Positions 3,317 through 64,000 of a stretch of DNA of 64,000 nucleotides are shown here, in pieces. Each line of letters opens with the position of its first letter. Within the stretch, counting starts at the first letter, position 1. The translations under genes and the position numbers were made by a program. Origin of the DNA: Acidobacteriota bacterium. Its GTDB lineage: Bacteria > Acidobacteriota > UBA6911. The stretch covers positions 929 to 64,928 of the forward strand of contig JAAYAJ010000002.1 of NCBI GenBank assembly GCA_012719455.1. The letters run 5' to 3'. The notes under the pieces were generated by a model. That model searched no databases and had not been told where the DNA came from. It saw only the letters and a program-made list of their open reading frames with translations.

Positions 3317-3410
3317 GTGTCCTCCTGCTCCATCCTCGATGGAATCCCACAGATATTTTTGGATTGCCTTACTTTTTTAGTCTTGCCGAAACTTTGCCGC
3401 AAAAAAAAAT

Positions 3411-3659
3411 TTATTCCACAATGATCCTCTGGGCCATGCCCCGACCCAACACTATCCGGCTGCCCTTTACAGCTATAATAAACGGTCCATGGAGGGAGTT
3501 CCGAAGCACTTCGATCTCCACGCCCGGCACCAGCCCCATCGAGGCCAACCTGCCCTGGAACCCATGCCCCGCATTCACGGCGACAAATCGTACTCGCCTA
3601 CCCGCTTGTACAATTGTTAACGGCATTGCATAAACCTCGTTACCGGACTTGATTGCCAT
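3411..3659 (-). CDS. feoA: FeoA (SH3-like ferrous iron transport protein A).
   Basis: 82-aa ORF ...LASMGLVPGVEIEVLRNSLHGPFIIAVKGSRIVLGRGMA..., typical of FeoA. It starts directly at the upstream stop codon. Confidence 0.8.
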   Translation of the reverse strand: MAIKSGNEVYAMPLTIVQAGRRVRFVAVNAGHGFQGRLASMGLVPGVEIEVLRNSLHGPFIIAVKGSRIVLGRGMAQRIIVE

Positions 3660-11308: not shown

Positions 11309-11332
11309 TCCCCCGCCACCGGAACCGACTAT

Positions 11333-21480: not shown

Positions 21481-22290
21481 ATGTCCGGAGGCAAGAAAAC
21501 CGACAGCACGGAAACGGCTGCCAAAAAGAAATTTACAAGACGCGATTTTCTGGTCACCGGCGGAACCGTGGTCGCGGTCGATGCCCTGATAGCCACGACT
21601 CCCGCCGCTGCGGTCGCCGCGTCCCCCGCGCCACCGCCTGAAAAAGTCCAGGCCTACCCTGCATCCAAGGGGTACCTGGTCTACGACAGCAAGAAATGCA
21701 TCGGGTGTACGACCTGCATGCTCAGCTGCTCGCTGACCCACTACGGGGTGCAGAGCCTCTCGCTGGCGCGCATCCAGATCATACAGGACTCCTTCGGAAA
21801 ATTTCCGACCGACCTGGAGATGGCCCCCTGCCGCCAGTGCAAGTACCCCCCTTGCGTGCAAAGCTGCCCGGTCCAGGCCTGTTTCGTCGACGAGGCCAAT
21901 GGCAACGTCCGCAGGATCGACACCGACAAATGCATCGGCTGCAAGACCTGCCTCAAGATGTGCCCCCAGCAGCCGCACCGGACCGTCTGGAACCACGAAA
22001 TCAAGAAATCCACCAAGTGCGACCTCTGCCTCGAGACCCCTTACTGGAACGAAAAGGGGGGGATCGGCGGCAAGCAGGCGTGCGTGGAATCGTGTCCTAT
22101 GAAAGCCATCAAGTTCGTCAGCGAAATGCCCGACCAGAAGGAAACCGATGGCTATAACGTCAACCTACGCAACGAACATTGGCTCAAGCTGGGGCTGGTG
22201 GACGACAGCAGAATCGTACCGCCTGGATCGCGCAGCATGGGCGGCGGCGCACCGAAAGCCAAAATGCAGGCGCCCAAAGCGAAAGCATAA
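21481..22290 (+). CDS. Tat-exported four-cluster [4Fe-4S] ferredoxin-type subunit (DmsB/YdhX-like).
   Basis: TRRDFLVTGG twin-arginine motif. Four CxxCxxCxxxCP-type motifs. RBS aaggag at 21467-21472. Start at internal M27 of ORF 21403..22290. Confidence 0.8.
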   Translation: MSGGKKTDSTETAAKKKFTRRDFLVTGGTVVAVDALIATTPAAAVAASPAPPPEKVQAYPASKGYLVYDSKKCIGCTTCMLSCSLTHYGVQSLSLARIQIIQDSFGKFPTDLEMAPCRQCKYPPCVQSCPVQACFVDEANGNVRRIDTDKCIGCKTCLKMCPQQPHRTVWNHEIKKSTKCDLCLETPYWNEKGGIGGKQACVESCPMKAIKFVSEMPDQKETDGYNVNLRNEHWLKLGLVDDSRIVPPGSRSMGGGAPKAKMQAPKAKA

Positions 22291-22304
22291 GGAGGAGACA
22301 TATC

Positions 22305-51828: not shown

Positions 51829-53541
51829 ATGGACAAGAAACTGGCGCCGTTGCTCGATCCGCGCGGGCACCAGGAACGGCCGACCGTTCCCCTGGCGCCC
51901 CGCGGCGGCATCGAGAATCTCAGGCGGGGAAAGATCCTCTTTTACGACAACACCAAACTGGGCTTCTGCAACTACGGCGAAGTCTTCGTCCGCATCCGGG
52001 AGCGCCTGCGCGGACTGGGGATATCGAATTTCGTCGACTACCGGGAAACCGTCCGCGGCAAGGACACCCGGGAACTGGAGGCGTACGCGGCGATGCTCGC
52101 CCGGGAAAAGCCGGCGGCCGCCGTCGTGGCCCTCGGCGACATGGGCACCTCCCCCGCGACCTGCATCGTCACCATCGCGCTGGAGAAGCTGGGCATCCCG
52201 AGCGTCTACATCACCGCCCCCCCCGGCGGGGACCTGGTCGAGGGGGTCGCGGCCTACCGCGCCGGGAACCTCTGCCTGTGCAAGATCGATATCTACCAGG
52301 CGAGCACCCGGGAAGAGGTGCGTGCCCAGGTAGACCTCAAGTGGGACTTCATCATGGAATCGCTCGCGGGGACGCCCGAGCAGGTCCGCGAGGCCGCCCG
52401 CATCGATTTCAAGATGGACCTGGCGCCCCCCGCCGCCGACGGGCTGCTTCCCGTCACCGCGGGGATCGAGCCGAGCGAGGAGAGGGTGTACGAACCTGGT
52501 TGCTACATGGAAGAAATCATGGAGTACCTCGACCGGGAACACCTGGGGGACGGCCTGCCGGTCATTCCCCCGACCGCGGCGCGCCTCGAAAGGATGTTTT
52601 CCTGCTGCCCCTTCGCGCCGGAAACCCCCCTGTGGCACGAGGTCGGACCCGCGGGCAAGGACGTCACTGTCCGCGACGTCGCCATCGCGGCGGTGATGGC
52701 CGGGTGCCGACCGGAGGCGATGCCGGTCCTGGTGGCCGCGTTCCGGGCGATGGCCGACCCCCGGTACAACCTGCTGCAGTCGGTGACGACGTCCCACCCC
52801 GGGGGGAACCTGGTCCTGGTCAGTGGCCCGATCGCCCAGGAGATCGGGATCTCGGGCCGGCAGGGGTGCCTGGGCCCCGGGTATCCCGCCAACGCCACCA
52901 TCGGGCGGGCGGTCAACCTCGTCATCCTGAACGTGTGCCGGGCTGTCCCCGGCGTCTGCGACCTCGACTGCCTCGCCTCGCAAGCGGAATTCACCTACTG
53001 CTTCGCCGAGGAGCCCTCCCTGGCCCAGTGGCCGATGATCAACGAGGAGCGCTGCGACGCCCGGACCACGACCGTCTACGTGCTCAAGGCGGAGCCGCAG
53101 CACGACATCATCGACTTCCTGAGCCTGAACGGCCATGACCTGCTCGACACCCTGATCGACTGCTGCACGACGCTCGGGACCAACAACGCCTACATCCCGG
53201 GGCCGCTGGTGCTGGTCCTGACCCCGGATCACGGGATGATGCTGAAAAATTCGGGGTATACCAAGGACGCCATCCGCGAGCAGGTCCACCTGAGGGCGAC
53301 CCACGACGTACCCATGGTGCGCAACCGCGGGCTGGTCCCGGTGCGCCCCCCGGAATTCGCCCATCGCCACCCGATGCCGGTGACCCGGTCACCCCGGGAC
53401 ATCGAGGTGGTCGTCGCCGGAGGGCGCGGGGGGCATTCGGGCGTCATCCTGCCCTGGGCGTTGCACAGCGAGGGGATCGTCCTGCCGGTGACCCTGCCCG
53501 ACGGCACCCCGGCGCACAGCATCGACCAATTCAGGAAGTGA
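51829..53541 (+). CDS. Conserved hypothetical protein (570 aa), first gene of an operon with an FAD oxidoreductase and a Mo-hydroxylase large subunit.
   Basis: RBS aaggaaag..ggaga before ATG at 51829. Multiple Cys (CC pairs at 259/260 and 445/446). No family recognised with confidence. Confidence 0.5.
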   Translation: MDKKLAPLLDPRGHQERPTVPLAPRGGIENLRRGKILFYDNTKLGFCNYGEVFVRIRERLRGLGISNFVDYRETVRGKDTRELEAYAAMLAREKPAAAVVALGDMGTSPATCIVTIALEKLGIPSVYITAPPGGDLVEGVAAYRAGNLCLCKIDIYQASTREEVRAQVDLKWDFIMESLAGTPEQVREAARIDFKMDLAPPAADGLLPVTAGIEPSEERVYEPGCYMEEIMEYLDREHLGDGLPVIPPTAARLERMFSCCPFAPETPLWHEVGPAGKDVTVRDVAIAAVMAGCRPEAMPVLVAAFRAMADPRYNLLQSVTTSHPGGNLVLVSGPIAQEIGISGRQGCLGPGYPANATIGRAVNLVILNVCRAVPGVCDLDCLASQAEFTYCFAEEPSLAQWPMINEERCDARTTTVYVLKAEPQHDIIDFLSLNGHDLLDTLIDCCTTLGTNNAYIPGPLVLVLTPDHGMMLKNSGYTKDAIREQVHLRATHDVPMVRNRGLVPVRPPEFAHRHPMPVTRSPRDIEVVVAGGRGGHSGVILPWALHSEGIVLPVTLPDGTPAHSIDQFRK

Positions 53542-53573
53542 AAACCGCGACGGGCGGAACGGAGAGAGCGTGC

Positions 53574-55004
53574 ATGGAAATATACGGTGAATACGATGTC
53601 GTCATAGCCGGCGGGGGGACCTCGGGGGTCGCCGCCGCCATCGCCTCCGCGCGCACCGGCGCGCGTACCCTCCTCGTCGAGCGGCTCGGCACCCTCGGGG
53701 GGCAGATGAACGTGTCCGGGCCGCCGGGGTTCGCCTACGCCTACATGTTCAACCCGCGCCGGGAACAGATCATCGCCGGGATCCTCGAGGAAACGCACCG
53801 GCGGCTGCTCGAGGCGGGGCACGCCCTTCCCCATACCACCCCCGATTTCCGCGTCGGCTACAGCTTCTCCCTGGTGGACCCCGATTACTGGGGCCTCCTC
53901 GTCTTCCAGATGATGCAGGAGAACGACGTCGAACTACTGCTCCATTCCCTGGTCGTGGACGCGGTCATGGAAGGGGACGCGATCCGCGGGGTGATCGTGG
54001 AAAACCCCTCCGGCCGGCAGATCGTGCTCGGCAAGATCGTCATCGACTGCACCGGGGAGGGGGAACTCGCCGCGCGCGCGGGCGCGCCCTATGAACAGGC
54101 TCCAAAGGAGGACCTGGAGCCGCACACGGTCTCCTTCACCGTCGACGGGGTCGACTGGGACAAGGTCCTCGCCTACGTCAAGGAGAACGCGGCCTACGAG
54201 TTCAATGCCATGACCCATCCCTACCTCGGCTGGAGCGAAGAGGAGATCATCGAGAGGATCCGGCGGGTCGAGGATGTGCGGGAGATCTCCAACTTCATGG
54301 GTTATTACACCCTGCGGGACCGCGCGGTGGCCGCCGGGGAGTACCACCCCTACAGCGGCGTCGGCTTCTTCATCCTGCCCCGCGACCACGGGGTTCTGCA
54401 GGCGCACTTCCAGCACTCGTCGCAGGTGGGGAACGCCGACCCCACCGACGTCCGCGACCTGACCCGGTGCGAAATCGAGTGCCGGGCGCAGATCCGGATG
54501 GCCCTGGGCTTCATCCGGCGCTACATGCCGGGGTTCGAGAACTCCTACCTGACGCGCGTCTGCCCGGAGCTGAGGATCCGGGAGAGCCGGCGCATAGTGG
54601 GGGACTACGTCCTGTGCAAGCAGGACGTGGCCGAGGCGCGCAAATTTCCCGACGTGATCGGCAAGAGTTCCTTCGCCAGCGGGGCCAAGCATGTAGCCAC
54701 GGCCGACACCATCTCCTACGAGGGGATCGTCTACCCGAAGGACGGCGGTTCCTACGACATTCCCTACCGCTGCCTGGTCCCCCGGAAAGTTGAAAACCTG
54801 CTGGTGGCCGGAAAGGCGATCTCAACCGACCGGGCCTCCTATGCGCGCTTTCTGCAGCTGACCATGGTCACGGGCCAGGCCGCCGGCGTCGCCGCCGCCC
54901 TCTCGGCCCGGGAAGGGATCACTCCCAGGCAGCTCGAGGCCGATGTCACGGAACTCCAGCGGGTCCTCCAGCAGCAGGGAGCGATCCTGTTCGGAACCCA
55001 TTAG
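53574..55004 (+). CDS. FAD-dependent oxidoreductase (FAD_oxidored/PF12831-like).
   Basis: YDVVIAGGGTSGVAAAIASARTGARTLLVERLGTLGG dinucleotide-binding motif; C-terminal GKAIS...VTGQAAGVAAA. Confidence 0.75.
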   Translation: MEIYGEYDVVIAGGGTSGVAAAIASARTGARTLLVERLGTLGGQMNVSGPPGFAYAYMFNPRREQIIAGILEETHRRLLEAGHALPHTTPDFRVGYSFSLVDPDYWGLLVFQMMQENDVELLLHSLVVDAVMEGDAIRGVIVENPSGRQIVLGKIVIDCTGEGELAARAGAPYEQAPKEDLEPHTVSFTVDGVDWDKVLAYVKENAAYEFNAMTHPYLGWSEEEIIERIRRVEDVREISNFMGYYTLRDRAVAAGEYHPYSGVGFFILPRDHGVLQAHFQHSSQVGNADPTDVRDLTRCEIECRAQIRMALGFIRRYMPGFENSYLTRVCPELRIRESRRIVGDYVLCKQDVAEARKFPDVIGKSSFASGAKHVATADTISYEGIVYPKDGGSYDIPYRCLVPRKVENLLVAGKAISTDRASYARFLQLTMVTGQAAGVAAALSAREGITPRQLEADVTELQRVLQQQGAILFGTH

Positions 55005-55014
55005 CGAGGTTGCC

Positions 55015-57426
55015 ATGGACTACAGGCCCTGGACCTGGAAGGTGCCCGAAAATTACCGGGAAACGCAGCCGTCCATCCGCCGCCAGGACGCCTGGGAGAA
55101 GGTGAGCGGGAGCGCGGTCTACACCCGCGACATTACGCTGCCGGGAATGCTGTACGCCAAGATCCTGACCTCTCCTTACGCCCACGCGCGGATCACGCGC
55201 ATCGACAGCACGCGCGCCGAGGCGCTGCCGGGCGTCCGGGACGTGCTCCGGTTCACCGACCCGGACATCGCCCATGACAGCGCCACCGGGGCCTGGTACG
55301 AGATTTCGGGGAACTACGATATCCTGACCCTCCCCGGCACGGCCGACTTCTTCCAGCACCCCATGGGGGTCGCGATCACGGCCGACAGCGAGGAGGTCTG
55401 CGACCGCGCCCTGCGCCTCCTCGACATCGAATGGGAGGAGATCCCCTTCATCCTGGACATGGAGGAGTCGATCCGTCCGGACGCGCCCAAGATCATGGCC
55501 GACGTCCGGCGCACCAACGCCCATGCCCGCGAACCCAATACCATCCTGACGGAGAGTTTCACCCTCGGCGATCCGGACGGGGGATTCGCCGCGGCCGACC
55601 GGGTCCTCCGGTACAAGATCACCCGCGAGATGAACGCGCCGGTCGCAGCCGAACCCGCCGTCTGCATCGCCCAGTGGCGCGGGGATTTTCTCGACCTCTG
55701 GGTCCACCACCACGACATCCCGCACTGGTTCCTCGTCAACCCTACAGAGGCCCGGGAGCAAACGGTCCCCCCCCTCGCCGAGTGGTCCAAAATCACAGCC
55801 ACCCTTCCCTACCAGGGGTGCATGTTCGGCGGCTTCGCCTGGCTCGCCTACTCCGCCTGCTTCACCCGGCTGGCCGTCATCCTCGCCCGCCGGGCGGGCG
55901 GACGGCCCATCAAGCTCCTGTACGACGAGAGCGCCCATTACTGCCTGGGGGACGACGGCGGCACCTACAGCTGCACGGTAGGCGCGAAAAAGGACGGCAC
56001 CATCACTTCCGCCGCCTGGCACGTCGTCGGCCCGCGCAACGCCCTGGCCGAGAAGACCTACGAGGGGACGGCGATCCCCAACTTGCGCGCCACCTGCGAG
56101 TGGGGGCTCGTCAACCGGGGGCACCAGATGTGCTTCCGCCATGGGGCCAACAGCTGCGTCCCCCATGGCGTCATGTTCGACCGGGTGGCCGCGGAGTTCG
56201 GGCTCGACCCCACCGAGGTGGCGCTCCGCAACGACGGCTGCCGGGGGCACGACTGGGACTGGGTCACGCGCTACCAGAGGGAGAACGGCTTCCCCGAACG
56301 CTGGAGCCTGCGCGAGGTGATCGAGAAGGGGAAGGCGGCCATCGACTGGGACCGGAAATGGCACCCGCCGGGAACGCGAAAACTCCCGGACGGGAAAATG
56401 CACGGGATGGGCTTCATGCAAGTGCTCGAATGGACCTGGCAGGCTCCGGCGAGCGCGATGTCCTGGGCCTGCCTGATGCTGCGCAACGGCATCGTGGCCA
56501 TCGTGGGGGTCCGCAGCGACATCGGCTCCGACACCGAATCGGGCGCCCGGCACATCGTCGCCTCGGAACTGGGGCTGAAATACGAGGACACCGTAATCCA
56601 GGAGCGCCGCTCGGACAACTCGAGCTTCTACATGTGGCAGCCCGGCGGTTCCTTTTCCACCGCCTATATCAACACCCAGCTGGTCATGGCCGCCCGCGAG
56701 CTGAAGCGGAAGATCCTCGAGTACGCCGTAAGCCCCACTCCCGCCTACAACTCGAGCCACTTCTTCAAGACCGCCGGCCCCCCGGCTTTCCCCGGCCTGC
56801 GCCCGGAAGAACTCGACATCCGCGACAGCTTCGTTTTTGAAAGGGCCCGCCCGGAAAACAGGAAGACGCTGCGGGAGGTGGCCGACATCTTCTGGGACGC
56901 CGACCCGGCCCTGGCTCATCCCGTAGTCGGAACCGTCTCCGGCCTGACCATGGACGGCAATCCCGATCCGACGATGTACGTCATGGGGCGCCAGGCCCAT
57001 TTCATCGAGGCCGCGGTCGACACCGAAACGGGGATGGTCGACATCATGCGCATCGTCTGCGTCAACGACGTAGGGCACCTGTTCAACCCGCGCGGAGCCC
57101 AAGCCCAGCAGTACGGCGGGGCCCTGATGGGGCTCGGCCGGAGCGCCACGGAGGAGCAGGTCTGGTGTCCACGCACCGGGGTGGGTCTGAATTTCGACCT
57201 GGCCCAGTACCACATCGGGACGATGAACGACTACCCGCCGGCCGAGTGCCTCGTCGTCGAGAGCCACCTGGGGTACGCCGCCTTCGGCGCCTTCGGCATA
57301 GGGGAGAACGTGGGGGCGGCCATGTCGGGCATCACCGCCTCGGCCATCTACAACGCGACCGGGAAATGGGTCTCGGACTACCCGACCACCCCCGACCGGG
57401 TGCTGCGGGCGCTCGGCAGGATCTGA
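55015..57426 (+). CDS. Xanthine dehydrogenase/aldehyde oxidase-family molybdopterin-binding large subunit. No adjacent FeS or FAD small subunits.
   Basis: N-terminal a/b-hammerhead ...WEKVSGSAVYTRDITLPGMLYAKILTSPYAHARI. 803 aa Ald_Xan_dh_C-type body. Confidence 0.85.
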   Translation: MDYRPWTWKVPENYRETQPSIRRQDAWEKVSGSAVYTRDITLPGMLYAKILTSPYAHARITRIDSTRAEALPGVRDVLRFTDPDIAHDSATGAWYEISGNYDILTLPGTADFFQHPMGVAITADSEEVCDRALRLLDIEWEEIPFILDMEESIRPDAPKIMADVRRTNAHAREPNTILTESFTLGDPDGGFAAADRVLRYKITREMNAPVAAEPAVCIAQWRGDFLDLWVHHHDIPHWFLVNPTEAREQTVPPLAEWSKITATLPYQGCMFGGFAWLAYSACFTRLAVILARRAGGRPIKLLYDESAHYCLGDDGGTYSCTVGAKKDGTITSAAWHVVGPRNALAEKTYEGTAIPNLRATCEWGLVNRGHQMCFRHGANSCVPHGVMFDRVAAEFGLDPTEVALRNDGCRGHDWDWVTRYQRENGFPERWSLREVIEKGKAAIDWDRKWHPPGTRKLPDGKMHGMGFMQVLEWTWQAPASAMSWACLMLRNGIVAIVGVRSDIGSDTESGARHIVASELGLKYEDTVIQERRSDNSSFYMWQPGGSFSTAYINTQLVMAARELKRKILEYAVSPTPAYNSSHFFKTAGPPAFPGLRPEELDIRDSFVFERARPENRKTLREVADIFWDADPALAHPVVGTVSGLTMDGNPDPTMYVMGRQAHFIEAAVDTETGMVDIMRIVCVNDVGHLFNPRGAQAQQYGGALMGLGRSATEEQVWCPRTGVGLNFDLAQYHIGTMNDYPPAECLVVESHLGYAAFGAFGIGENVGAAMSGITASAIYNATGKWVSDYPTTPDRVLRALGRI

Positions 57427-57435
57427 CAGCCGGCG

Positions 57436-58650
57436 TCAGCGCCCGCCGCGGAAGCCCGGGAAGGGGGAGAGCGCCCGGTCGAGCACCCCGAGGGAGTAGG
57501 TGATCGCCACGCCGTAGTTGGTGATCGGGACCCCGGCTTCGCGGCAGCGCAGGATGCGCGAGAGCACCTCCCGGCGGTTGAGCATGCAGGAACCGCAGTG
57601 GATGACCAGTTGGTAGGCGCCGATCTCCTCGGGGAAATCGTGCCCCTGCAGGTGGACGAATTCCAGGTCGGCCCCCGTGTACTGACGGATCCAGCGCGGG
57701 ATCTTGACCCTGCCGATGTCCTCGCCGATGGGGTGGTGGGCGCACGATTCCAGGACCAGGACCCGGTCCCCCGCCCGCAATCGGTCGACCGCCTTTACCC
57801 CGCGCACGAACTCCGCCAGGTCCCCCTTGAGCCGGGCGAAGAGGATGGAAAAGGAGGTCAACGGGACCCCGTCGGGCACGTCCCCGGCCACCCGCAGGAA
57901 GACCTGGGAATCGGTCACGACCAACGCCGGGGACTCACGGAGCCGGCCGAGCGCGGTGCGCAGCTCCCGCTCCTTGACCACCAGGCAGCAGGAGTCGTGG
58001 TCCAGAACGTCACGGATCGACTGCACCTGGGGGAGGATGAGCCGGCCGCGCGGAGCTTCCAGGTCGATGGGGACCACGAGCACGACCATGGACCCCGGCG
58101 CGATCAGGTCCCCCAGGATCGGCGGAGCCTCCAGGAACTCTTCAGGGGCCGACCGGACCAGGGCTTCGCGCAACCCGCCGATTCCGCGCCCGAGGCCGGC
58201 GGCCGTGACCACCACCGGGATCTTCCTCTTTTCGAGGTCCCGCAGGGTTGCGGGAGCGGGAGCGCCCAGGTCGGACTTGTTGAACACGACGATGACGGGG
58301 ATCTTCCGCCGCTCGAGTTCCCCGAGGACCCCCTCCTCGAACGAGCCCCAGTCCGCCCCCGCCGCCACGAGGATCCCCAGGTCGGTCCGCTCGAACACCT
58401 GCCGCGTGCGCCCCGCACGTACCTCCCCGAGCGCGCCCTCATCGTCGATCCCCGCGGTGTCGATGAACAGGACCGGGCCGAGCGGCGGCAGTTCCATCGG
58501 CTTTTCCACCGGGTCGGTCGTGGTTCCGGGAACGTCGGAAACGATCGACACCTCCTGGCGCGTGAGCGCGTTCAGGAGCGAGGACTTCCCCACGTTGCGG
58601 CGGCCGAACAGGCCGATGTGCACTCGCATCCCCTTGGGCGTAGCTTTCAT
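57436..58650 (-). CDS. hydF: [FeFe]-hydrogenase maturation GTPase HydF.
   Basis: G1 LFGRRNVGKSSLLNAL; G3 DTAGID; NKSD G4. C-terminal cluster-binding CAHHP...HCGSCMLNRRE (CxH...HCxxC) and a ...YGVAI-type C-terminus. Start at internal M83. Confidence 0.85.
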   Translation of the reverse strand: MKATPKGMRVHIGLFGRRNVGKSSLLNALTRQEVSIVSDVPGTTTDPVEKPMELPPLGPVLFIDTAGIDDEGALGEVRAGRTRQVFERTDLGILVAAGADWGSFEEGVLGELERRKIPVIVVFNKSDLGAPAPATLRDLEKRKIPVVVTAAGLGRGIGGLREALVRSAPEEFLEAPPILGDLIAPGSMVVLVVPIDLEAPRGRLILPQVQSIRDVLDHDSCCLVVKERELRTALGRLRESPALVVTDSQVFLRVAGDVPDGVPLTSFSILFARLKGDLAEFVRGVKAVDRLRAGDRVLVLESCAHHPIGEDIGRVKIPRWIRQYTGADLEFVHLQGHDFPEEIGAYQLVIHCGSCMLNRREVLSRILRCREAGVPITNYGVAITYSLGVLDRALSPFPGFRGGR

Positions 58651-58753
58651 TCCTTTTCCTCCGGCGGAGGGCACCCCGCCCGCATGATACAGTCGGGGGT
58701 GCGCTCGGCGCCTCGAACTCCACGCGGAAGATCTGCTCCCGGGGCTCGCAGCT

Positions 58754-60178
58754 TCAGAAAATGAGGTCCCTCTCCCCGGCAGCCCGTATGCGCGCAAGGC
58801 GATTCTCGATCTCGTCCCGGTCGGCCGCCGGTCCAAGACGCTCGAGCTCGGCGCGGATGAGGGCTTCCCCGGCGGCGCGGGTCCCGGGCGAGGCATAATC
58901 GGCCAGGTACTCCTGGAGCGTCATCAGGGCGTTGGGGGTGCAGTAGCGCTTGATGAACCCCGGGACGGCAAACTCCATGAAGTGTTCGCCCGTCCGGCCG
59001 AGCCGGTAGCAGGCGGTGCAGAAGCTGGGGAGGTAACCGTCCTCGATCAGCTCGCGCATCACCGCGTCGAGGCTGCGGGTGTCCCCCAGTTCGAACTGTT
59101 CCCGGTCCCTGACCTGGCGGGCGTCCCGGTAGGTGTAGCCGCCGATCTCGATACGGCTGCCGGCGTCGATCTGGGAGACGCCGAGAGCCAGGAGCTCGCG
59201 CCGGAGCCTGGCCGGCTCCCGCGCGGTCAGGATCAGCCCGGTATAGGGGACCGCCAACCGGAGGGTGGCGATCACCCGGCGGAAATCGTCGTCCGCGATC
59301 GACCCCATTCCGGCCGGCTCCACGCCGCTGGCGGGCCGCAGTCGCGGGAAACTGATGGTGTGGGGGCCGACGCCGTACCGCCCGCGCAGGTACACGGCGT
59401 GCGCCACGAGCCCCAGGACCTCGAAGCGCCAGTCGTGCAGGCCGAACAGGACGCCGATGCCGACATCGTCGCACCCGGCCTCCAGCGCCCGGCTCAGGCC
59501 GTCGAGGCGGTAGGCGTAGTCCCCCTTCCGGCTGCCGCGGGCGTGTACGCGACGGTAGGTGCCGTGGTGATAGGTCTCCTGGAAGATCTGGTAGGTGCCG
59601 ATCCCCGCGGCCTTGATGGTGCGGTAGCCCTCCACGTCCATCGGGGCCGCGTTGATGTTGACCCTGCGGATCTCCCCGCGCCCCTTCCTCACCCCGTAGA
59701 CCGTGCGCACCTGCTCGGCGATGAATTCCGCATCGTATTTCGGGTGCTCTCCGAAGACCAGGATGAGGCGCTTGTGTCCCGCGTCTTCCAACCGTTCCAC
59801 CTGATCGCGCAGCTCGTCGGGAGTGAGGGTGCGGCGCACCGCCAGCGGGTTGCTGCGCCGGAAGCCGCAGTAGACGCAGTCGTTAACGCAGTCGTTGCCG
59901 ACGTAGAGCGGGGCGAAGAGCACGATGCGGTTGCCGTAGACAGTTTCCTTCAGGGTCCGGGCGGCGCCGAAAATCATCTCGAGCAACCCGGGGTCCTCCG
60001 TCCGCAGGAGCGCGGCCGTCTCTTCGACCGTGAGCGGCTCCTTTTCAAGGCTCTTGGCGATGACGTCCTGGACCGTTTCCCGATCGGGCGCGGGCCCCTC
60101 GAGCAGCGAGGAAAGGTAGGCGTCGTCGATGAAATCGACCGCGCCCGGGCTGGTTTTCAATGCAGGCAATCCAGACAT
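58754..60178 (-). CDS. hydG: [FeFe]-hydrogenase H-cluster radical-SAM maturase HydG (ThiH-like with a C-terminal auxiliary-cluster motif).
   Basis: Radical SAM CVNDCVYCGF. ThiH/BioB-like body. C-terminal SFCTACYRLGRTGEHFMEFAVPGFIKRYCTPN (CxxCx22C) distinguishes HydG from ThiH. Confidence 0.85.
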   Translation of the reverse strand: MSGLPALKTSPGAVDFIDDAYLSSLLEGPAPDRETVQDVIAKSLEKEPLTVEETAALLRTEDPGLLEMIFGAARTLKETVYGNRIVLFAPLYVGNDCVNDCVYCGFRRSNPLAVRRTLTPDELRDQVERLEDAGHKRLILVFGEHPKYDAEFIAEQVRTVYGVRKGRGEIRRVNINAAPMDVEGYRTIKAAGIGTYQIFQETYHHGTYRRVHARGSRKGDYAYRLDGLSRALEAGCDDVGIGVLFGLHDWRFEVLGLVAHAVYLRGRYGVGPHTISFPRLRPASGVEPAGMGSIADDDFRRVIATLRLAVPYTGLILTAREPARLRRELLALGVSQIDAGSRIEIGGYTYRDARQVRDREQFELGDTRSLDAVMRELIEDGYLPSFCTACYRLGRTGEHFMEFAVPGFIKRYCTPNALMTLQEYLADYASPGTRAAGEALIRAELERLGPAADRDEIENRLARIRAAGERDLIF

Positions 60179-60189
60179 GCAAAACCCCG

Positions 60190-61329
60190 TTATCGGGAAG
60201 CATTCGCGGAACCCGGGCGCAGCACCACGCTGAAGGTGCTGCCGACGTCGGGGCGGCTCTCCACGGAAATGTCACCATCGTACAGCGTGACAATTTTTTT
60301 GAGCGTCGACAAACCGAGCCCGCTTCCCGAGATGTGCCGGGTCTTGTCGTTCTTGATGCGAGAGAAATCGCGGAACAGCCGCTGACATTCTTCGGGGGTC
60401 ATGCCGATGCCCGAATCTTCCACGTCGAGGCGGATCTCGTCTTCCACCTCCTGGACCCGAACGCCGACCCGGCCCCCGTCCCGGTTGTATTTCACGGCGT
60501 TGGATACGAGGTTGTTGAAGATCATCTCGATCTCGGCCCGGTCGGCCTCTATCCCGGCTCCCTCCGGCAGGTCCAGGTCGATCGTGATGCCGCGCCGCGC
60601 GGCTTCGGCCTTCACGTTTTCCACCGCCTGGCGGGCGATCTCGCCCAGGTCCACCGTCGCGATCACCCGCTGGCGCTGCCCGGATTCAATGGAGGTCATG
60701 TCGAGCAGGTCCGATATGAGCTTACGCATCCCCTCGATGCGCACGAGGCAACGGTCCACGATGTGGTCATAATCCGCGAGCGTTTCACCGACCGCGCGCT
60801 CGCGCATCATCTGCAGGTAACCCTCGATGGCGGAGATGGGCGCCTTCATCTCGTGCGCCAGGACGCTGACGAACTGGAACCGGACCTGGCGCTTTTCCTC
60901 CGCCAGGCGCCGCGCCTGGCGCTGCAGGATCAGGTGCCGCGCCGCCTTCCGGACCGCGCCCCGGAGTTCTTCCGGCGTAAAGGGTTTGGCGAGAAAATCA
61001 TAGGCCCCCCGCCGCGTGGCGGTCACCGCCGTGTCGAGCGATGCGTACGCGGTGATCATGATGACCAGCAGGTCCAGGGGCTGTTTCATGAGCCGGTCCA
61101 GGATGTCGAGTCCCGTCGTATCCGGCAGCTTGTAGTCGAGGATCACGATGTCGGGCTGCTCCTCGGCCATCCTCTCGTCGAATTCCCTGCCGTCGGCCGC
61201 CGTGCGGATGTTGAAACTGACGTCGCCGTTGATGTCGTGCAGGTGCAGGTGCATTTTGCGCAGGGCGCGCTCCGCCCCCCGGCGCATCCCGTATTCGTCG
61301 TCCACGATGAGAATATTGAGGAGATCCAC
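60190..61329 (-). CDS. Hybrid sensor: N-terminal response-regulator receiver fused to a histidine kinase (HisKA plus HATPase_c). Probable GTG start.
   Basis: Receiver ILIVDDEYGMRR...DIVILDYKLPDTTGLDIL; H-box SVLAHEMKAPI; N/G boxes NLVSNAVKYN, GSGLGLST. Confidence 0.8.
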   Translation of the reverse strand: MDLLNILIVDDEYGMRRGAERALRKMHLHLHDINGDVSFNIRTAADGREFDERMAEEQPDIVILDYKLPDTTGLDILDRLMKQPLDLLVIMITAYASLDTAVTATRRGAYDFLAKPFTPEELRGAVRKAARHLILQRQARRLAEEKRQVRFQFVSVLAHEMKAPISAIEGYLQMMRERAVGETLADYDHIVDRCLVRIEGMRKLISDLLDMTSIESGQRQRVIATVDLGEIARQAVENVKAEAARRGITIDLDLPEGAGIEADRAEIEMIFNNLVSNAVKYNRDGGRVGVRVQEVEDEIRLDVEDSGIGMTPEECQRLFRDFSRIKNDKTRHISGSGLGLSTLKKIVTLYDGDISVESRPDVGSTFSVVLRPGSANASR

Positions 61330-61345: not shown

Positions 61346-61729
61346 CTACTGGACTTCTTTCAGGAGACGGTCCACCTCATCGGCCAGGATGCGGGGATTG
61401 ACCGGCTTGTTCAGGAACGTGCTCACCGGCAGCCAGGTCTCGTCGGGCGTAAAACCGAACTGCAGGTCCATCTCCTTGCTGATGCCCGTCAGCATGACCA
61501 GCGGCATCTTGGGATAGCTCGCGTGGAGCTCGCGCGCGAGCTCGAAACCCGCGGTCTTGTCCTCCATCATGACGTCCAGCACCGCCAGGTCCGGGACCTC
61601 GGCCGCCACCGCCCGCCTCGCTTCGGCCGCCGAGAAGGAGACCGTGACCCTGTGCCCGCGCTGGGCGAGAACCGTCCGATTCATCTCGATAATGTCCTGG
61701 TCGTCGTCGACCAACAGAATGTGAGCCAT
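61346..61729 (-). CDS. Single-domain (CheY-like) response-regulator receiver.
   Basis: MAHILLVDDDQDII...DLAVLDVMME...LVMLTG...KP. RBS aggagg. Confidence 0.8.
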   Translation of the reverse strand: MAHILLVDDDQDIIEMNRTVLAQRGHRVTVSFSAAEARRAVAAEVPDLAVLDVMMEDKTAGFELARELHASYPKMPLVMLTGISKEMDLQFGFTPDETWLPVSTFLNKPVNPRILADEVDRLLKEVQ

Positions 61730-61759: not shown

Positions 61760-63760
61760 CTACTCGTCCCGCGACCTCCGCGGAAGCCTGACCGTGAATT
61801 GAGTTCCCGTCGGTCCCGCTGACGGATCGCTGTTGGACACCATGGTAATGTCCCCCCTGTGCATCTTAACAATTCCGTAGGTTACGGCAAGTCCCAGGCC
61901 GGTCCCCTTCCCGATCTGCTTGGTGGTGAAGAAGGGCTCGAAGATCTTGGCCTGGTTGTCCTTGGGCACGCCGATGCCGGTGTCGGCGACCGCGAAGCGG
62001 ACCGCGTCGGCGTCCCCTTCGGCCGTCACCAGGACGCTCCCCCCGTCCGGCATCGCTTCGCAGGCGTTGCCGAACAGGTTGGTGAGGACCTGGTTGATCT
62101 GGTCGGGATCCAGGTCGACCACCGGGTCCTCGATCCGGAGCTCCACCCGCGCTTCGATGTTGGCGGGAAAGGGGTAGGCCTTGACCGCGTGCCGCAGCAG
62201 TTCACCCAAATCGACGGTCCGCAGCACGGCCTTGTTCTGGCGGGCGAAGTGGAGCAGCCGGACCACGATCTTCTTGCAGCGGTCCGCCTGCTCGGCGATC
62301 ATGTCCAGGTCTTCCTTCCACTCCGGGTGTTCCCCTGCCTCCTCGAGCAGCATGTGGGCGTGCATCAGGACGATCCCGAGCGGGTTGTTGACCTCGTGGG
62401 CCACCCCGGCGGCCAGCTGCCCCATGCTGGCGAGCCTTTCGGAGTGCATCAGCGCCTCCTGCGTGCTGATGAGCTGCTCGTGGGACTCCTCCAGCTGCTG
62501 GTTGATGTCCCGGAGCTTCTCGATCGTGTACGGAAGGCACATCTCCGTTTCGGCCAGGTGGCGGTGGATGGCGATGGCGTGTTCCACGCAGGTGTCGTAG
62601 CCGCAGGCGCCGCAGTTCAGTTCATCCTCGGACCGCAGCTTCCCCATGCGCGCGAGGATGGCCGTCACCTCCTCCCGCGAGGGCTGGGAGATGCGCTGGT
62701 CGTAGGGGCTGAATTTCCGCCTTAAATCGACATCGCGGAAGCGCTCCATGTCGGCCTCCCAGCGCTTCCGCCGCTCCTCATCCCGGCAGCGGTCCCTGAC
62801 GTACCGGCCCACCAGGCTCCGGCGCCAGAAGAGGCTCGTATCCACCGTCATGCCGGCCCCCATGATGCAGCCGTTGCAGCAGAGGACCTCGAGCAGGCGC
62901 ACGTCCAGGCTGCTCGATTCCGCCGCCTGGATCGCCTCGACGAAATTGGTCCGCCCGTCCGTGGCCAAGATCTCCCCCTGCATCAGGTCTTCCCTGATGT
63001 CGGCCGCCTGCAGCAGCCCCCGGCTGATGGGGAAAAGCCCCCCGGAGCCGCTCCAGGGCGGGTCGAAATCCCCGCCCGTCACGGTGTCCGGCGCGATCCC
63101 GGCGCCGGAGAACATCTGGCGCAACTCGGCGAACGTCAGCACCGCCGCGACCTCGCCGTCGAGCTCCTTGCTGGCCGCCTCCCCCTTCTTGGCGATGCAG
63201 GGACCGATAAAAACCACGGGGACCCCGGGCCCGTACAGCCGCTTCAGCACGCGGGCGGCGGCCACCATCGGGGAGACGATGGGGGCCAAGCGGGGAACCA
63301 GGTCCGGGTAGTACCTCTCGACGTAGCCCACCAAGGCAGGGCAGGTGGAAGCAATGTAGTGGCTGTAGGGGGGGTGTTCCAGGAGCTCCCGGTAACCCCG
63401 GGCCACCAGGTCGGCGGCAAAGCCGACCTCGTGCACGTAGCGGAAACCCAGGGCCCGGATCATCCCGACGACGGCCTCGGGGGGACACTCCTCGAACTCG
63501 GCGGCGAAACTCGGGGCGACGATGGCGGCAACGGCGGCGTGGCGTCCGAAAAGGGCCTCCACGTCATGGGTCCCGTCGAGCACCTGCTTGGCACCCTGGC
63601 TGCACACGCTGGCGCAGTTTCCGCACCCGATGCACCGTTCGGGGATCACGCGGGCCTGGCCCTCGGAAATGCCTATGGCCTTGGCGGGGCATTCGCGCAC
63701 GCACGTGTAGCATACGCGGCAGCGCTCCTTGATCGTTTGTACGAAACATGCCGCCTGCAT
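61760..63760 (-). CDS. Sensory (HydS/Group-C-like) [FeFe]-hydrogenase domain fused to a histidine kinase.
   Basis: N-terminal 2x[4Fe-4S] motifs CRVCYTCVRECP / CIGCGNCASVCS. H-cluster-like motifs ASTCPALV (L1), IGPCIAKKGE (L2), EVLCCNGCIMG (L3). Accessory C-x2-C-x4-C-x16-C (NCGACGYDTCVEH...EMCLPY). H-box GVAHEVNNPLG; HATPase GTGLGLAVTYG. Confidence 0.8.
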   Translation of the reverse strand: MQAACFVQTIKERCRVCYTCVRECPAKAIGISEGQARVIPERCIGCGNCASVCSQGAKQVLDGTHDVEALFGRHAAVAAIVAPSFAAEFEECPPEAVVGMIRALGFRYVHEVGFAADLVARGYRELLEHPPYSHYIASTCPALVGYVERYYPDLVPRLAPIVSPMVAAARVLKRLYGPGVPVVFIGPCIAKKGEAASKELDGEVAAVLTFAELRQMFSGAGIAPDTVTGGDFDPPWSGSGGLFPISRGLLQAADIREDLMQGEILATDGRTNFVEAIQAAESSSLDVRLLEVLCCNGCIMGAGMTVDTSLFWRRSLVGRYVRDRCRDEERRKRWEADMERFRDVDLRRKFSPYDQRISQPSREEVTAILARMGKLRSEDELNCGACGYDTCVEHAIAIHRHLAETEMCLPYTIEKLRDINQQLEESHEQLISTQEALMHSERLASMGQLAAGVAHEVNNPLGIVLMHAHMLLEEAGEHPEWKEDLDMIAEQADRCKKIVVRLLHFARQNKAVLRTVDLGELLRHAVKAYPFPANIEARVELRIEDPVVDLDPDQINQVLTNLFGNACEAMPDGGSVLVTAEGDADAVRFAVADTGIGVPKDNQAKIFEPFFTTKQIGKGTGLGLAVTYGIVKMHRGDITMVSNSDPSAGPTGTQFTVRLPRRSRDE

Positions 63761-63812: not shown

Positions 63813-64000
63813 TTAGGCGTGCCCGCCGCCCGCGTCGGCGGCTTCCTGCAGCAACCGGTGCACCTCGTTCCTCAACTGCTCCGGGCGCACCGGCTTGTCC
63901 ATGATCCGGTTCGCCTTGATCCAAGACTGGGCCTCCGGGTAGAGCGCGGAAAACGACAGCCCCGTCTCCCCCGCGACCGCAGTCAGGAGAAGGATGGGGA
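63813..64000 (-). CDS. Response-regulator receiver domain protein. C-terminal part only; the gene runs off the window end.
   Basis: Reverse translation ...PILLLTAVAGETGLSFSALYPEAQSWIKANRIMDKPVRPEQLRNEVHRLLQEAADAGGGHA* looks like a receiver alpha4-beta5-alpha5 region. Confidence 0.55.
   Translation of the reverse strand, partial: PILLLTAVAGETGLSFSALYPEAQSWIKANRIMDKPVRPEQLRNEVHRLLQEAADAGGGHA

What the first reader, a model, noticed from the sequence alone, without database searches (positions are those of the whole stretch)
61760..63760. H-cluster motifs in the kinase-fused hydrogenase domain differ from catalytic enzymes in the way sensory HydS proteins do
Read directly: L1 is ASTCP rather than TSCCP, so the proton-relay Cys is replaced. 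L2 is PCIAKKGE, keeping C, K and E. L3 is EVLCCNGCIMG rather than ExMACxxGC, so the Met near the bridging CO is replaced by Leu. An extra C-x2-C-x4-C-x16-C motif precedes the coiled coil and kinase. Loss of the proton pathway plus an accessory cluster is the pattern reported for putative sensory [FeFe] hydrogenases, consistent with signalling rather than turnover.
Basis: partly seen in the sequence, partly recalled or inferred. Interest (0 to 1): 0.7.

Follow-up and report, generated by a model that had tools for sequence, protein, structure and literature searches.

The report
Hydrogenase-like hydrogen sensor fused to kinase
This gene encodes an iron-iron hydrogenase domain that has lost its fast proton route and is joined directly to a histidine kinase, so it most likely reports hydrogen levels to the cell rather than making hydrogen; the type is already known from genome surveys but has never been tested in the laboratory.

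Summary
ORF 61760-63760 (-) encodes 666 aa with five parts:
- two ferredoxin-type [4Fe-4S] motifs
- an [FeFe]-hydrogenase H-domain
- a Cx2Cx4Cx16C cluster (PF04060)
- a heptad linker
- HisKA + HATPase_c

Alignment to CpI shows all four H-cluster cysteines, K358 and E361 kept. C299 is Thr, and E279, E282, R286 and S319 are lost. M353 is Gly and M497 is Leu. One correction: the L3 Met (M497) sits by the bridgehead amine.

This is the published Group C "HydS" pattern. The PAS domain is replaced by a directly fused kinase.

At least 591 species genomes in many phyla carry the family. It sits directly downstream of a hydCBA hydrogenase in 57 of 69 loci. A receiver-kinase hybrid follows it in 69 of 71.

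HydDB (2016) and a 2024 Hydrogenedentota survey already list kinase-linked or kinase-fused sensory [FeFe] hydrogenases. This is therefore a new member of a known, biochemically untested kind.

Hydrogen sensing is inferred, not shown.

The parts
61760..63760 (-). Whole gene: HydS-type [FeFe]-hydrogenase domain fused to a histidine kinase, 666 aa
   Evidence: ORF. Domains. 100% identical to P0001, an NCBI Acidobacteriota MAG protein.
63590..63733 (-). Two ferredoxin-type CxxCxxCxxxC motifs (C14/17/20/24 and C43/46/49/53), giving two accessory [4Fe-4S] clusters
   Evidence: Pfam Fer4_10, Fer4 and Fer4_7. Translation checked. All eight Cys invariant in 54 aligned homologs.
62855..63532 (-). H-domain (Fe_hyd_lg_C, aa 77-302)
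   Evidence: Pfam E 5.3e-47. The AF2 model has pLDDT above 90 for most of this stretch. Foldseek matches DdH, CbA5H, TkHydA1, TmHydA and CpI at probability 1.00.
63338..63352 (-). L1 motif ASTCP. T139 replaces the proton-relay Cys (CpI C299). C140 is the cluster ligand (CpI C300).
63179..63205 (-). L2 motif GPCIAKKGE. G186 replaces CpI M353, the Met at the bridging CO. C188, K191 and E194 are kept.
   Evidence: Role of M353 from PMC10055695.
62849..62890 (-). L3 motif EVLCCNGCIMGAGM. L293 replaces CpI M497, the Met at the adt amine. C295 and C298 are the ligands (CpI C499, C503) with one residue fewer between them. C294 is an extra, non-universal Cys.
62537..62614 (-). C-terminal Cx2Cx4Cx16C motif (C383, C386, C391, C408); PF04060 [4Fe-4S] site
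   Evidence: Pfam PF04060 at 29.7 bits against a cutoff of 23. Four Cys invariant. Same motif published for the M2e and M2f classes (PMC8163306).
62426..62536 (-). Helical linker, aa 409-445, from the last cluster Cys into the DHp helix. Leu at 416, 423, 430 and 437 are spaced by heptads.
   Evidence: Invariant and near-invariant Leu. Helices in the AF2 secondary structure, at low pLDDT in the monomer model. Linker length varies only in steps of 7 across the family.
62237..62425 (-). HisKA (DHp) domain with phospho-acceptor His455 (codon 62396-62398)
   Evidence: Pfam HisKA E 2e-13. H455-E-x-N-N-P invariant. Translation.
61775..62110 (-). HATPase_c catalytic domain with N, G1, F and G2 boxes
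   Evidence: Pfam E 3.5e-25. N561/N565, D593-x-G-x-G and G619-T-G-L-G-L invariant. Best solved relative is ZraS 9jfj, E 6.5e-37.
63813..64000 (-). 3' part of an upstream single-domain response regulator (137 aa in full), cut by the window end
61346..61729 (-). Single-domain response regulator, 127 aa, 30 bp downstream of the sensor kinase
   Evidence: Pfam Response_reg E 1.6e-16. At least one single receiver gene is adjacent in 62 of 72 related loci.
60190..61329 (-). Receiver-HisKA-HATPase_c hybrid kinase, 379 aa, with no sensor domain of its own
   Evidence: Pfam. Present within 1.2 kb downstream in 69 of 71 related loci.
58754..60178 (-). HydG, radical SAM maturase of the H-cluster
   Evidence: NCBIfam TIGR03955 at 491.8 bits against a cutoff of 312.
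57436..58650 (-). HydF, GTPase scaffold for H-cluster maturation
   Evidence: NCBIfam TIGR03918 at 551.8 bits against a cutoff of 325.6. Pfam HydF_dimer and HydF_tetramer.

Best explanation
The gene encodes a cytoplasmic sensor kinase whose input module is a Group C (HydS-type) [FeFe] hydrogenase.

Shown by sequence:
- The module can bind a complete H-cluster; four Cys ligands, A-P-S, P164, K191 and E194 are kept.
- It carries two N-terminal [4Fe-4S] clusters and one C-terminal Cx2Cx4Cx16C cluster.
- It lacks the Group A proton pathway (C299, E279, E282, R286, S319) and both framing methionines.
- The last cluster Cys is joined to the phospho-acceptor His455 by a heptad-periodic helix of fixed length.
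- The kinase has all its catalytic motifs.
- The gene lies in a same-strand run rex-hydC-hydB-hydA-RR-hydS/HK-RR-REC/HK-hydG-hydF, with short gaps where measured (RR137 to hydF: 11-103 bp; hydA to RR137: about 75 bp).

Inferred:
- H2 binds and is slowly split at the H-cluster.
- The resulting change in the redox state or conformation of the H-domain and C-terminal cluster domain passes down the coiled coil as a register or rotation change.
- This switches autophosphorylation of His455.
- The phosphoryl group goes to the adjacent single-domain receivers and to the receiver of the 379-aa hybrid kinase. The hybrid kinase relays to an output not encoded in the cluster.
- The likely target is expression or activity of the neighbouring NADH-linked HydABC hydrogenase and its maturases, so that H2 metabolism tracks H2 partial pressure.
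For: Motif mapping:
- HMMER alignments to solved catalytic enzymes and a MAFFT alignment to CpI with family counts.
- The same substitutions hold across 132 diverse 50%-identity cluster representatives.
- Fold level: AF2 H-domain pLDDT is above 90. Foldseek gives probability 1.00 to DdH, CbA5H, TkHydA1, TmHydA and CpI for the N-terminal roughly 440 aa, and to ZraS for the kinase part.

Agreement with published sensory features:
- C299, M353 and M497 are altered in sensory enzymes. M353 is Gly in about 51% of them (PMC10055695).
- The Cx2Cx4Cx16C motif and two N-terminal clusters are shared by classes M2e and M2f. M497 is Leu in TamHydS (PMC8163306).

Module logic: the same 2xFer4 + H-domain + PF04060 module is fused in relatives to PAS, HisKA/HATPase, HisKA_3/HATPase, Sigma54_activat+HTH_8, GGDEF and MCPsignal.

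Kinase competence: H-box, N, G1, F and G2 residues are invariant.

Linker: 46 residues lie between C408 and H455 in 118 of 120 and 75 of 80 family members. Other lengths are 39, 53, 32 and 67, which differ by multiples of 7.

Context:
- A hydCBA cluster lies directly upstream in this organism.
- In related genomes HydA is directly upstream in 57 of 69 loci and the REC-kinase hybrid is downstream in 69 of 71.
- The partner HydA keeps C299, E279, E282, R286, S319, M353 and M497.
- HydG and HydF pass NCBIfam equivalog cutoffs.
Against: - No experiment exists on this protein or on any kinase-fused HydS in the literature held.
- The sensory role of the whole Group C/D is still called putative (PMC8924675).
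[quoted passage not shown] A simple 'cluster reduction is the signal' model is therefore doubtful, at least for Group D (PMC13104023).
- No DNA-binding response regulator lies in the cluster or elsewhere in the 64-kb window, so the output is unknown.
- hydE is absent from the window and from 10 kb on either side of the gene, although 24 related loci have it. H-cluster maturation in this organism therefore cannot be confirmed from the sequence at hand.
- The linker has low confidence in the monomer model.
Confidence: 0.7

Rival explanations
1. It is a redox sensor, not an H2 sensor. The N-terminal ferredoxin-like clusters exchange electrons with ferredoxin or the HydABC complex. The kinase reads the cellular redox poise. 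The H-cluster serves only as an electron sink or structural element.
For: - Two canonical [4Fe-4S] motifs are invariant.
- The cluster starts with the NADH/NAD+-sensing repressor Rex (NCBIfam NF003995 above its cutoff; Rex homologue found in 39 of 55 loci with enough upstream flank). Redox control is therefore already a theme at this locus.
- In TamHydS the N-terminal clusters are the main electron route (PMC13104023).
Against: - Every residue that binds or hydrogen-bonds the [2Fe] subsite is invariant across 120 homologs, and nearly so across 132 diverse representatives. A ferredoxin sensor would have no need of this.
- H-cluster maturase genes are embedded in the same gene run.
- A redox sensor would not require the selective loss of the proton pathway.
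Confidence: 0.12
2. It is a fourth subunit of the HydABC complex ('BfuT'). It docks on the enzyme and tunes electron flow or activity directly, with the kinase domain acting on the complex rather than on gene expression.
For: - Tight, widely conserved adjacency to hydA (57 of 69 loci).
- The 2024 Hydrogenedentota survey names the adjacent Group C gene bfuT, as part of the cluster (PMC11406978).
- No DNA-binding regulator is found in the cluster.
- Single-domain receivers often act through protein-protein contacts (general knowledge of two-component systems).
Against: - Solved HydABC complexes matched here (8a6t, 7p5h) are listed as HydABC only.
- The protein has a complete, conventional HisKA/HATPase kinase and cognate receivers, which fits a diffusible phosphorelay.
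- 7 of 69 loci have no HydA homologue in the fetched flanks.
Confidence: 0.08
3. It senses another H-cluster ligand such as CO or O2, using the modified pocket to report inhibitors rather than H2.
For: Characterised HydS enzymes show altered CO and O2 reactivity, attributed to changes at C299, M353 and M497 (PMC8163306).
Against: - The altered reactivity reported is increased tolerance to CO, not higher affinity.
- The genomic partner is a hydrogenase, not a CO dehydrogenase or an oxidative-stress system.
Confidence: 0.05
4. It is a slow but genuine catalytic hydrogenase, and the kinase fusion has an unrelated input.
For: TmHydS and TamHydS do turn over H2 at low rates despite lacking C299 (PMC10055695; PMC8163306).
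Against: - The protein has no other candidate sensor domain. Only 37 residues separate the cluster motif from HisKA.
- The Group D alternative proton pathway residue (TamHydS E252, CpI V423) is Leu249 here (PMC10407848).
- A catalytic-type HydA with the Group A proton pathway and both framing methionines intact (apart from Ser at CpI C300) is encoded next door.
Confidence: 0.03

Closest known systems
Kinase-domain Group C [FeFe] hydrogenases from genome surveys: HydDB C1 'histidine kinase-linked (putative)', and the HydDB C3-classified 'BfuT' with a His-kinase domain next to bfuABC in Hydrogenedentota and Caldithrix abyssi (WP_006928132.1)
   Same: - An H-domain with sensory-type substitutions is fused to a histidine kinase and encoded beside a trimeric Group A3-type hydrogenase (PMC5037454; PMC11406978).
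- Hydrogenedentota genomes are among the 80 related loci found here, including the isolate CSSed162cmA_463 used in that paper.
   Different: - Nothing essential differs; this is another member, from an Acidobacteriota MAG of anaerobic digesters.
- The surveys did not report the residue-level pocket map, the heptad-quantised linker, or the near-universal REC-kinase hybrid downstream.
- Assignment to subgroup C1 or C3 could not be tested here.
TmHydS, Thermotoga maritima (Group C, class M2f)
   Same: - Two N-terminal [4Fe-4S] clusters, an H-domain and a C-terminal Cx2Cx4Cx16C cluster.
- C299 is replaced by a non-relay residue and M353 is Gly.
- The gene is linked to another hydrogenase.
   Different: - TmHydS has Ala at C299 (Thr here) and Ser at M497 (Leu here).
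- It ends in a PAS domain with no kinase. This protein has no PAS and a directly fused HisKA/HATPase.
- The L3 ligand spacing is Cx2C here. In the PAS-type representatives it is mostly Cx3C (49 of 64).
TamHydS, Thermoanaerobacter mathranii (Group D, class M2e)
   Same: - No PAS domain, M497 is Leu, and the same three-cluster layout.
- Residue numbering is almost superimposable: A137, E122, K126, E289 and C379 in TamHydS against T139, G122, L126, E291 and C383 here.
   Different: - Group D has Ser or Thr at M353 (Gly here).
- It has a Glu at TamHydS 252 that starts an alternative proton path (Leu249 here).
- It retains E282 and K at R286 (Gly and Leu here).
- TamHydS has no fused output domain.
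[NiFe] regulatory hydrogenase system HoxBC-HoxJ-HoxA (HydDB Group 2b, histidine kinase-linked)
   Same: It has the same logic. A low-activity hydrogenase acts as the H2 receptor for a histidine kinase that controls hydrogenase genes (PMC5037454, Table 1).
   Different: - The metal centre and fold are unrelated.
- Sensor and kinase are separate proteins joined through a PAS-like domain of HoxJ.
- The output regulator HoxA is known, whereas here the output is not identified.
CpI and other Group A catalytic [FeFe] hydrogenases
   Same: Same fold and the same H-cluster ligands and cyanide-binding residues.
   Different: - The proton pathway is lost and both framing Met are replaced.
- Q325 is Met and the L3 loop is shorter.
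- An extra C-terminal cluster and a kinase are present.

Membership tests
Group C (HydS, M2f-like) putative sensory [FeFe] hydrogenase | H-domain with all four H-cluster Cys ligands and the CN-binding Lys | tested here: met
   C140, C188, C295, C298 and K191 align with CpI C300, C355, C499, C503 and K358. All are invariant in 120 homologs.
Group C (HydS, M2f-like) putative sensory [FeFe] hydrogenase | Proton-relay Cys (CpI C299) and the rest of the Group A proton pathway not conserved | tested here: met
   C299 is T139, S319 is A159, R286 is L126 and E282 is G122. The E279 region is deleted or non-acidic. Gap placement around E279-R286 differs between the two alignments, but neither places an acidic residue or Arg there.
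Group C (HydS, M2f-like) putative sensory [FeFe] hydrogenase | Small residue (Gly, Ser or Thr) at CpI M353; M497 not conserved | tested here: met
   G186 in 120 of 120 and L293 in 120 of 120. The published frequencies at M353 are G 51%, S 32% and T 17%.
Group C (HydS, M2f-like) putative sensory [FeFe] hydrogenase | Two N-terminal [4Fe-4S] motifs plus a C-terminal Cx2Cx4Cx16C motif | tested here: met
   Published definition.
Group C (HydS, M2f-like) putative sensory [FeFe] hydrogenase | PAS domain after the C-terminal cluster | tested here: not met
   Pfam finds no PAS. Only 37 residues lie between C408 and the start of HisKA. The kinase takes the place of PAS. HydDB nevertheless counts kinase-linked forms within Group C.
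Group C (HydS, M2f-like) putative sensory [FeFe] hydrogenase | Encoded beside a Group A (often A3, trimeric) hydrogenase | tested here: met
   The run hydC-hydB-hydA lies immediately upstream. The same holds in 57 of 69 related loci.
HydDB subgroup C1 versus C3 | Placement by the HydDB k-NN classifier or by phylogeny with reference sequences | not testable with these tools
   No HydDB classifier or reference set was available. The literature bins kinase-bearing relatives in both C1 and C3.
Group D (M2e, TamHydS type) | Ser or Thr at CpI M353, and Glu at TamHydS 252 (CpI V423) starting an alternative proton path | tested here: not met
   G186 and L249. The family has L, M or I at this position. 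Definitions.
Group A catalytic [FeFe] hydrogenase | Canonical TSCCP, MPCxxKxxE and ExMxCxxGCxxGGGQ motifs with an intact proton pathway | tested here: not met
   NCBIfam FeFe_hydrog_A scores 106 bits against a cutoff of 406.
HisKA-type sensor histidine kinase | H-box His in a DHp domain plus N, G1, F and G2 boxes in HATPase_c | tested here: met
   Pfam HisKA at 50.6 bits and HATPase_c at 89 bits, both above their cutoffs. Motif residues invariant. ZraS 9jfj matches at E 6.5e-37.
HisKA-type sensor histidine kinase | Autophosphorylation and transfer to a cognate receiver | not testable with these tools
   Needs biochemistry. Candidate receivers are adjacent, and RR127 and the REC-kinase hybrid show the conserved acidic pocket, Asp, Thr and Lys on direct reading.

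The most novel reading that the evidence does not exclude
The kinase-fused HydS, one or two single-domain receivers and a sensor-less receiver-kinase hybrid form a fixed multi-component H2 phosphorelay. This relay has travelled together with a particular clade of NADH-linked HydABC hydrogenases, those with Ser at the CpI C300 position (TSCSP), across more than a dozen phyla. No DNA-binding regulator is in the cluster. The relay may therefore act after translation on the hydrogenase complex rather than on transcription. Signalling would pass mechanically through the heptad-locked helix from the C-terminal cluster domain and would not depend on that cluster's redox state.
Probability: 0.25. Interest if true: 0.55.

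Novelty: new member of a known kind. Interest (0 to 1): 0.35.

Why it matters
Whether Group C/D [FeFe] hydrogenases really sense H2, and how they pass on the signal, is still open. [quoted passage not shown]

A version with the kinase fused directly to the sensor gives a built-in, assayable output: His autophosphorylation and phosphotransfer to the neighbouring receivers. The linker length also makes a testable prediction. Insertions of seven residues should be tolerated; insertions of other lengths should not.

The family is widespread in uncultured anaerobes of digesters, sediments and groundwater. It probably shapes how fermenters set H2 production against H2 partial pressure.

For genome annotation, NCBI has no dedicated model. 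The protein is named only as 'hydrogenase large subunit C-terminal domain-containing protein'.

Tried and rejected
- **Extra Cys in L3.** I asked whether C294 of 'LCC' is the real ligand, which would keep Cx3C spacing. Rejected: in the wider family that position is C, A, S or F, while C295 is invariant.
- **Group D membership.** Rejected on G186 and L249.
- **hydE.** Searched for in the window and in 10-kb flanks; none found. Only hydG cross-hits at 25% identity. Relatives do have it, confirmed by TIGR03956.
- **Output regulator.** Searched the window for further receiver or DNA-binding response regulators; none beyond the cluster.
- **Promoters and terminators.** A scan of 57-64 kb gave counts at the level of shuffled sequence, so it is uninformative.
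- **Rfam.** No match in the whole window.
- **Literature on TSCSP.** Only one relevant mention.
- **Literature on experiments.** A search for work on a kinase-fused HydS found none.
- **Unavailable sources.** The Greening 2016 ISME paper is not held. The afdb50 fold library was unavailable.
- **Reference sequences.** I could not obtain TmHydS or TamHydS sequences. Comparison with them rests on residue identities and numbers printed in the papers, not on my own alignment.
- **Model coordinates.** These are not exposed, so distances in the pocket were not measured. The mapping rests on sequence alignment plus the fold match.
Full report
**What is at the coordinates**

The finding spans one complete ORF, 61760-63760 on the minus strand, of 666 aa. 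Pfam finds these domains in order:
- two ferredoxin-type 4Fe-4S motifs (aa 10-57)
- the [FeFe]-hydrogenase H-domain Fe_hyd_lg_C (aa 77-302, E 5.3e-47)
- the small 'FeS' domain PF04060 (aa 381-410)
- HisKA (aa 446-508)
- HATPase_c (aa 551-662)

- ASTCP at 63338-63352
- GPCIAKKGE at 63179-63205
- EVLCCNGCIMGAGM at 62849-62890
- CGAC...C, that is C-x2-C-x4-C-x16-C, at 62537-62614

**Do the motifs sit in the H-cluster pocket?**

Yes. HMMER alignments of aa 1-420 against solved catalytic enzymes align 'yiASTCPalv' with 'mfTSCCPswi'. They align 'vfiGPCIAKKGE' with 'vsvMPCIGKKFE', and 'llEVLCC.NGCimGAG' with 'fvEVMACpGGCmsGGG'.

I also aligned the protein, its 120 closest homologs and the neighbouring HydA to CpI. 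It returns every published landmark at the right number: E279, E282, R286, C299, C300, S319, M353, C355, K358, E361, M497, C499 and C503.

Residues kept, all invariant in 120 of 120 homologs:
- C300 = C140, C355 = C188, C499 = C295, C503 = C298
- K358 = K191 and E361 = E194
- A230-P231-S232 = A82-P83-S84, and P324 = P164

Residues changed:

| CpI residue | Here | Family count |
|---|---|---|
| C299 | T139 | T 101, S 14 of 120 |
| S319 | A159 | A 114 of 120 |
| R286 | L126 | invariant |
| E282 | G122 | variable, mostly R |
| E279 region | deleted | all |
| M353 | G186 | invariant |
| M497 | L293 | invariant |
| Q325 | M165 | invariant |
| GGGQ | GAGM | - |

One residue is also missing between the two L3 cysteines.

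An AlphaFold2 model built on 54 homologs has pLDDT above 90 through most of the H-domain. Foldseek matches its first roughly 440 residues to DdH, CbA5H, T. kivui and T. maritima HydA, and CpI at probability 1.00. The C-terminal part matches the ZraS kinase.

The sequence reading is right, but one structural label is wrong. According to PMC10055695, M497 in L3 contacts the bridgehead amine of the azadithiolate. M353, the first residue of the L2 motif MPCxxKxxE, sits by the bridging CO. So the Leu in L3 replaces the amine-side Met.

The second Cys in 'LCC' is the conserved ligand. The first is C, A, S or F in more distant family members, so the ligand spacing really is Cx2C rather than Cx3C.

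**Comparison with the published sensory enzymes**

PMC8163306 defines the M2e (Group D) and M2f (Group C) classes by three features:
- two N-terminal [4Fe-4S] motifs
- a C-terminal Cx2Cx4Cx16C motif
- absence of C299 and of all residues crucial for Group A proton transfer

TmHydS has Ser and Gly at M497 and M353. TamHydS has Leu and Ser. PMC10055695 reports Gly at M353 in about half of sensory sequences.

This protein therefore has the Group C signature at M353, and shares Leu at M497 with TamHydS. It lacks the two Group D hallmarks. One is Ser or Thr at M353. The other is the Glu at TamHydS 252 (CpI V423), which starts the alternative proton path (PMC10407848); here that position is Leu249.

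It differs from TmHydS in having no PAS domain. Only 37 residues separate the last cluster Cys from HisKA.

I could not obtain the TmHydS or TamHydS sequences. This comparison uses the residue identities printed in the papers.

**How large and how varied is the family?**

- The protein is identical to a database entry from an Acidobacteriota MAG. It occurs on contigs from anaerobic-digester metagenomes.
- The 120 best hits (61-90% identity apart from the identical P0001) are almost all full-length with the same domain architecture; a few are truncated at the N-terminus.
The best 80 are all MAGs. Their titles name Acidobacteriota, Planctomycetota, Hydrogenedentota, Lentisphaerae, Myxococcota, Desulfobacterota, Fermentibacteria, Fibrobacteres, Verrucomicrobiota, Gemmatimonadota, Thermoleophilia, Nitrospiraceae, Clostridia and others.
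- An exhaustive HMMER search with aa 1-420 found 5155 cluster representatives at E up to 0.001, of which 888 score at or below 1e-30.

Among the best 150 representatives:

| Group | Number |
|---|---|
| Cluster motif followed by a kinase | 48 |
| Motif followed by 160-215 residues | 64 |
| Longer tails | 17 |
| Motif at the C-terminal end | 3 |
| Fragments or no motif | 18 |

Pfam shows that the 160-215-residue tails are mostly PAS domains. The longer tails are Sigma54_activat plus HTH_8 in 15 of the 26 sequences scanned. That set was the 17 long-tail representatives plus 9 long kinase-fused ones. GGDEF and MCPsignal also occur.

One conserved input module joined to many standard output domains is the usual signature of a sensor domain.

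**Genomic context**

The window ends 240 bp upstream of the gene. Contigs carrying the identical protein show the rest. On the same strand the order is:
1. Rex
2. HydC (NuoE-like)
3. a 1090-aa HydB (NuoF-like fused to a GltD-like NAD(P)-binding part)
4. a 571-aa HydA
5. a 137-aa receiver
6. this gene
7. a 127-aa receiver
8. a 379-aa receiver-HisKA-HATPase hybrid
9. HydG
10. HydF

Gaps from RR137 to hydF are 11-103 bp by my arithmetic; the hydA-RR137 gap is about 75 bp, and the gaps upstream of hydA were not tabulated. HydA passes the NCBIfam model for 'NADH-dependent [FeFe] hydrogenase, group A6'. HydG and HydF pass their equivalog cutoffs. The sensor kinase passes no NCBIfam model.

Across the 80 related loci, counting only loci with enough flank:

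| Neighbour | Loci |
|---|---|
| HydA homologue directly upstream | 57 of 69 |
| Receiver-kinase hybrid within 1.2 kb downstream | 69 of 71 |
| At least one single-domain receiver adjacent | 62 of 72 |
| HydB | 51 of 55 |
| HydC | 49 of 55 |
| Rex | 39 of 55 |

The partner HydA keeps the full Group A proton pathway and both methionines. It is the natural internal control for the substitutions in the sensor.

**Signal path inside the protein**

The kinase motifs are invariant: H455-E-x-N-N-P, N561/N565, D593-x-G-x-G and G619-T-G-L-G-L.

Between C408 and H455 lie 46 residues in 118 of 120 close homologs and in 75 of 80 genome loci. The alternatives are 39, 53, 32 and 67, all offset by multiples of seven. 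Of 30 more distant kinase-fused representatives with a recognisable H-box, 27 obey the same rule. Leu416, 423, 430 and 437 are invariant or nearly so.

This is what a continuous coiled coil looks like when helical register carries the signal. It ties the C-terminal cluster domain mechanically to the DHp helix.

That reading fits the 2026 TamHydS result. There the C-terminal cluster is not reduced by H2 and may have a structural signalling role (PMC13104023).

**Most likely mechanism, and what remains inference**

Shown by sequence: cofactor-binding capacity, loss of the fast proton route, a competent kinase, the rigid linker, and the conserved neighbours.

Inferred: H2 is the ligand. H-cluster state changes kinase output. 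The phosphoryl group flows to the adjacent receivers and the hybrid kinase. The target is the HydABC cluster.

The output is unknown. No DNA-binding regulator is in the cluster or the window. Promoter and terminator scans were at chance level.

Rival readings (redox sensor, HydABC subunit, CO/O2 sensor, slow catalyst) are listed with their evidence in the rival explanations.

**Novelty**

HydDB (2016) already lists [FeFe] subgroup C1 as 'histidine kinase-linked (putative)' (PMC5037454). A 2024 survey describes Group C genes with HATPase_c or His-kinase domains next to bfuABC in Hydrogenedentota. It names Caldithrix abyssi WP_006928132.1 as a HydDB reference with a kinase domain (PMC11406978).

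I found no biochemical study of a kinase-fused form in the library held.

The finding is therefore correct and well read, but it is a new member of a known, putative kind. Its practical value is as a directly assayable model for the open question of H2 sensing by [FeFe] hydrogenases.

Noticed in passing
L003:7745-9460 (the hydA gene about 540 bp beyond the window's right end, same strand as the finding): The partner catalytic HydA has L1 = TSCSP. Ser sits at the position of CpI C300, a ligand of the [4Fe-4S] part of the H-cluster. C299, the whole proton pathway, M353, M497 and the other three Cys are canonical. The same is true of 70 of 73 HydA genes next to kinase-fused HydS in other genomes. 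The literature held mentions TSCSPGW only once, in Melainabacteria.
   Followed up: partly
window 57436-61329 and L001-L007; compare L008:13561-14637: hydE is missing from this organism's cluster, from the 64-kb window and from 10-kb flanks. 24 related loci carry a hydE gene, in most of them right after the receiver-kinase hybrid; TIGR03956 is above its cutoff for the two candidates checked, L008 and L017.
   Followed up: partly
window 62396-62536 (linker between C408 and H455): Linker length between the last cluster Cys and the phospho-His varies only in steps of seven residues across the family: 46, with variants of 39, 53, 32 and 67.
   Followed up: yes
P0150-P0254 and alignments A2, A3: The same 2xFer4 + H-domain + PF04060 module is fused in relatives to a sigma-54 activator plus HTH_8, to HisKA_3 kinases, to GGDEF and to MCP signalling domains, as well as to PAS.
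   Followed up: partly
L003:4424-7696: HydB of this locus is 1090 aa, a NuoF-like flavoprotein fused to a GltD-like NAD(P)-binding oxidoreductase part. Most related loci match only the NuoF-like half.
   Followed up: no
window 1103-4418: FeoB (1103-3316, minus strand) and a DtxR-type iron repressor fused to FeoA (3660-4418, minus strand) lie in a stretch with GC 0.55-0.58. The rest of the window has mostly 0.65-0.72 (range 0.61-0.74).
   Followed up: no
window 53538-57426 (+): An FAD-dependent oxidoreductase and a xanthine-dehydrogenase-family molybdopterin subunit converge on hydF. Upstream of them is a UGSC-family ORF, with only a weak Pfam hit below the cutoff. The same three genes follow hydF in the contigs.
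   Followed up: no
window 10364-12943 (+) and 22179-24407 (+): A DUF362 protein is followed by a 536-aa polyferredoxin. Further on lies an aldehyde:ferredoxin oxidoreductase. These are more ferredoxin-linked redox genes in the same window.
   Followed up: no
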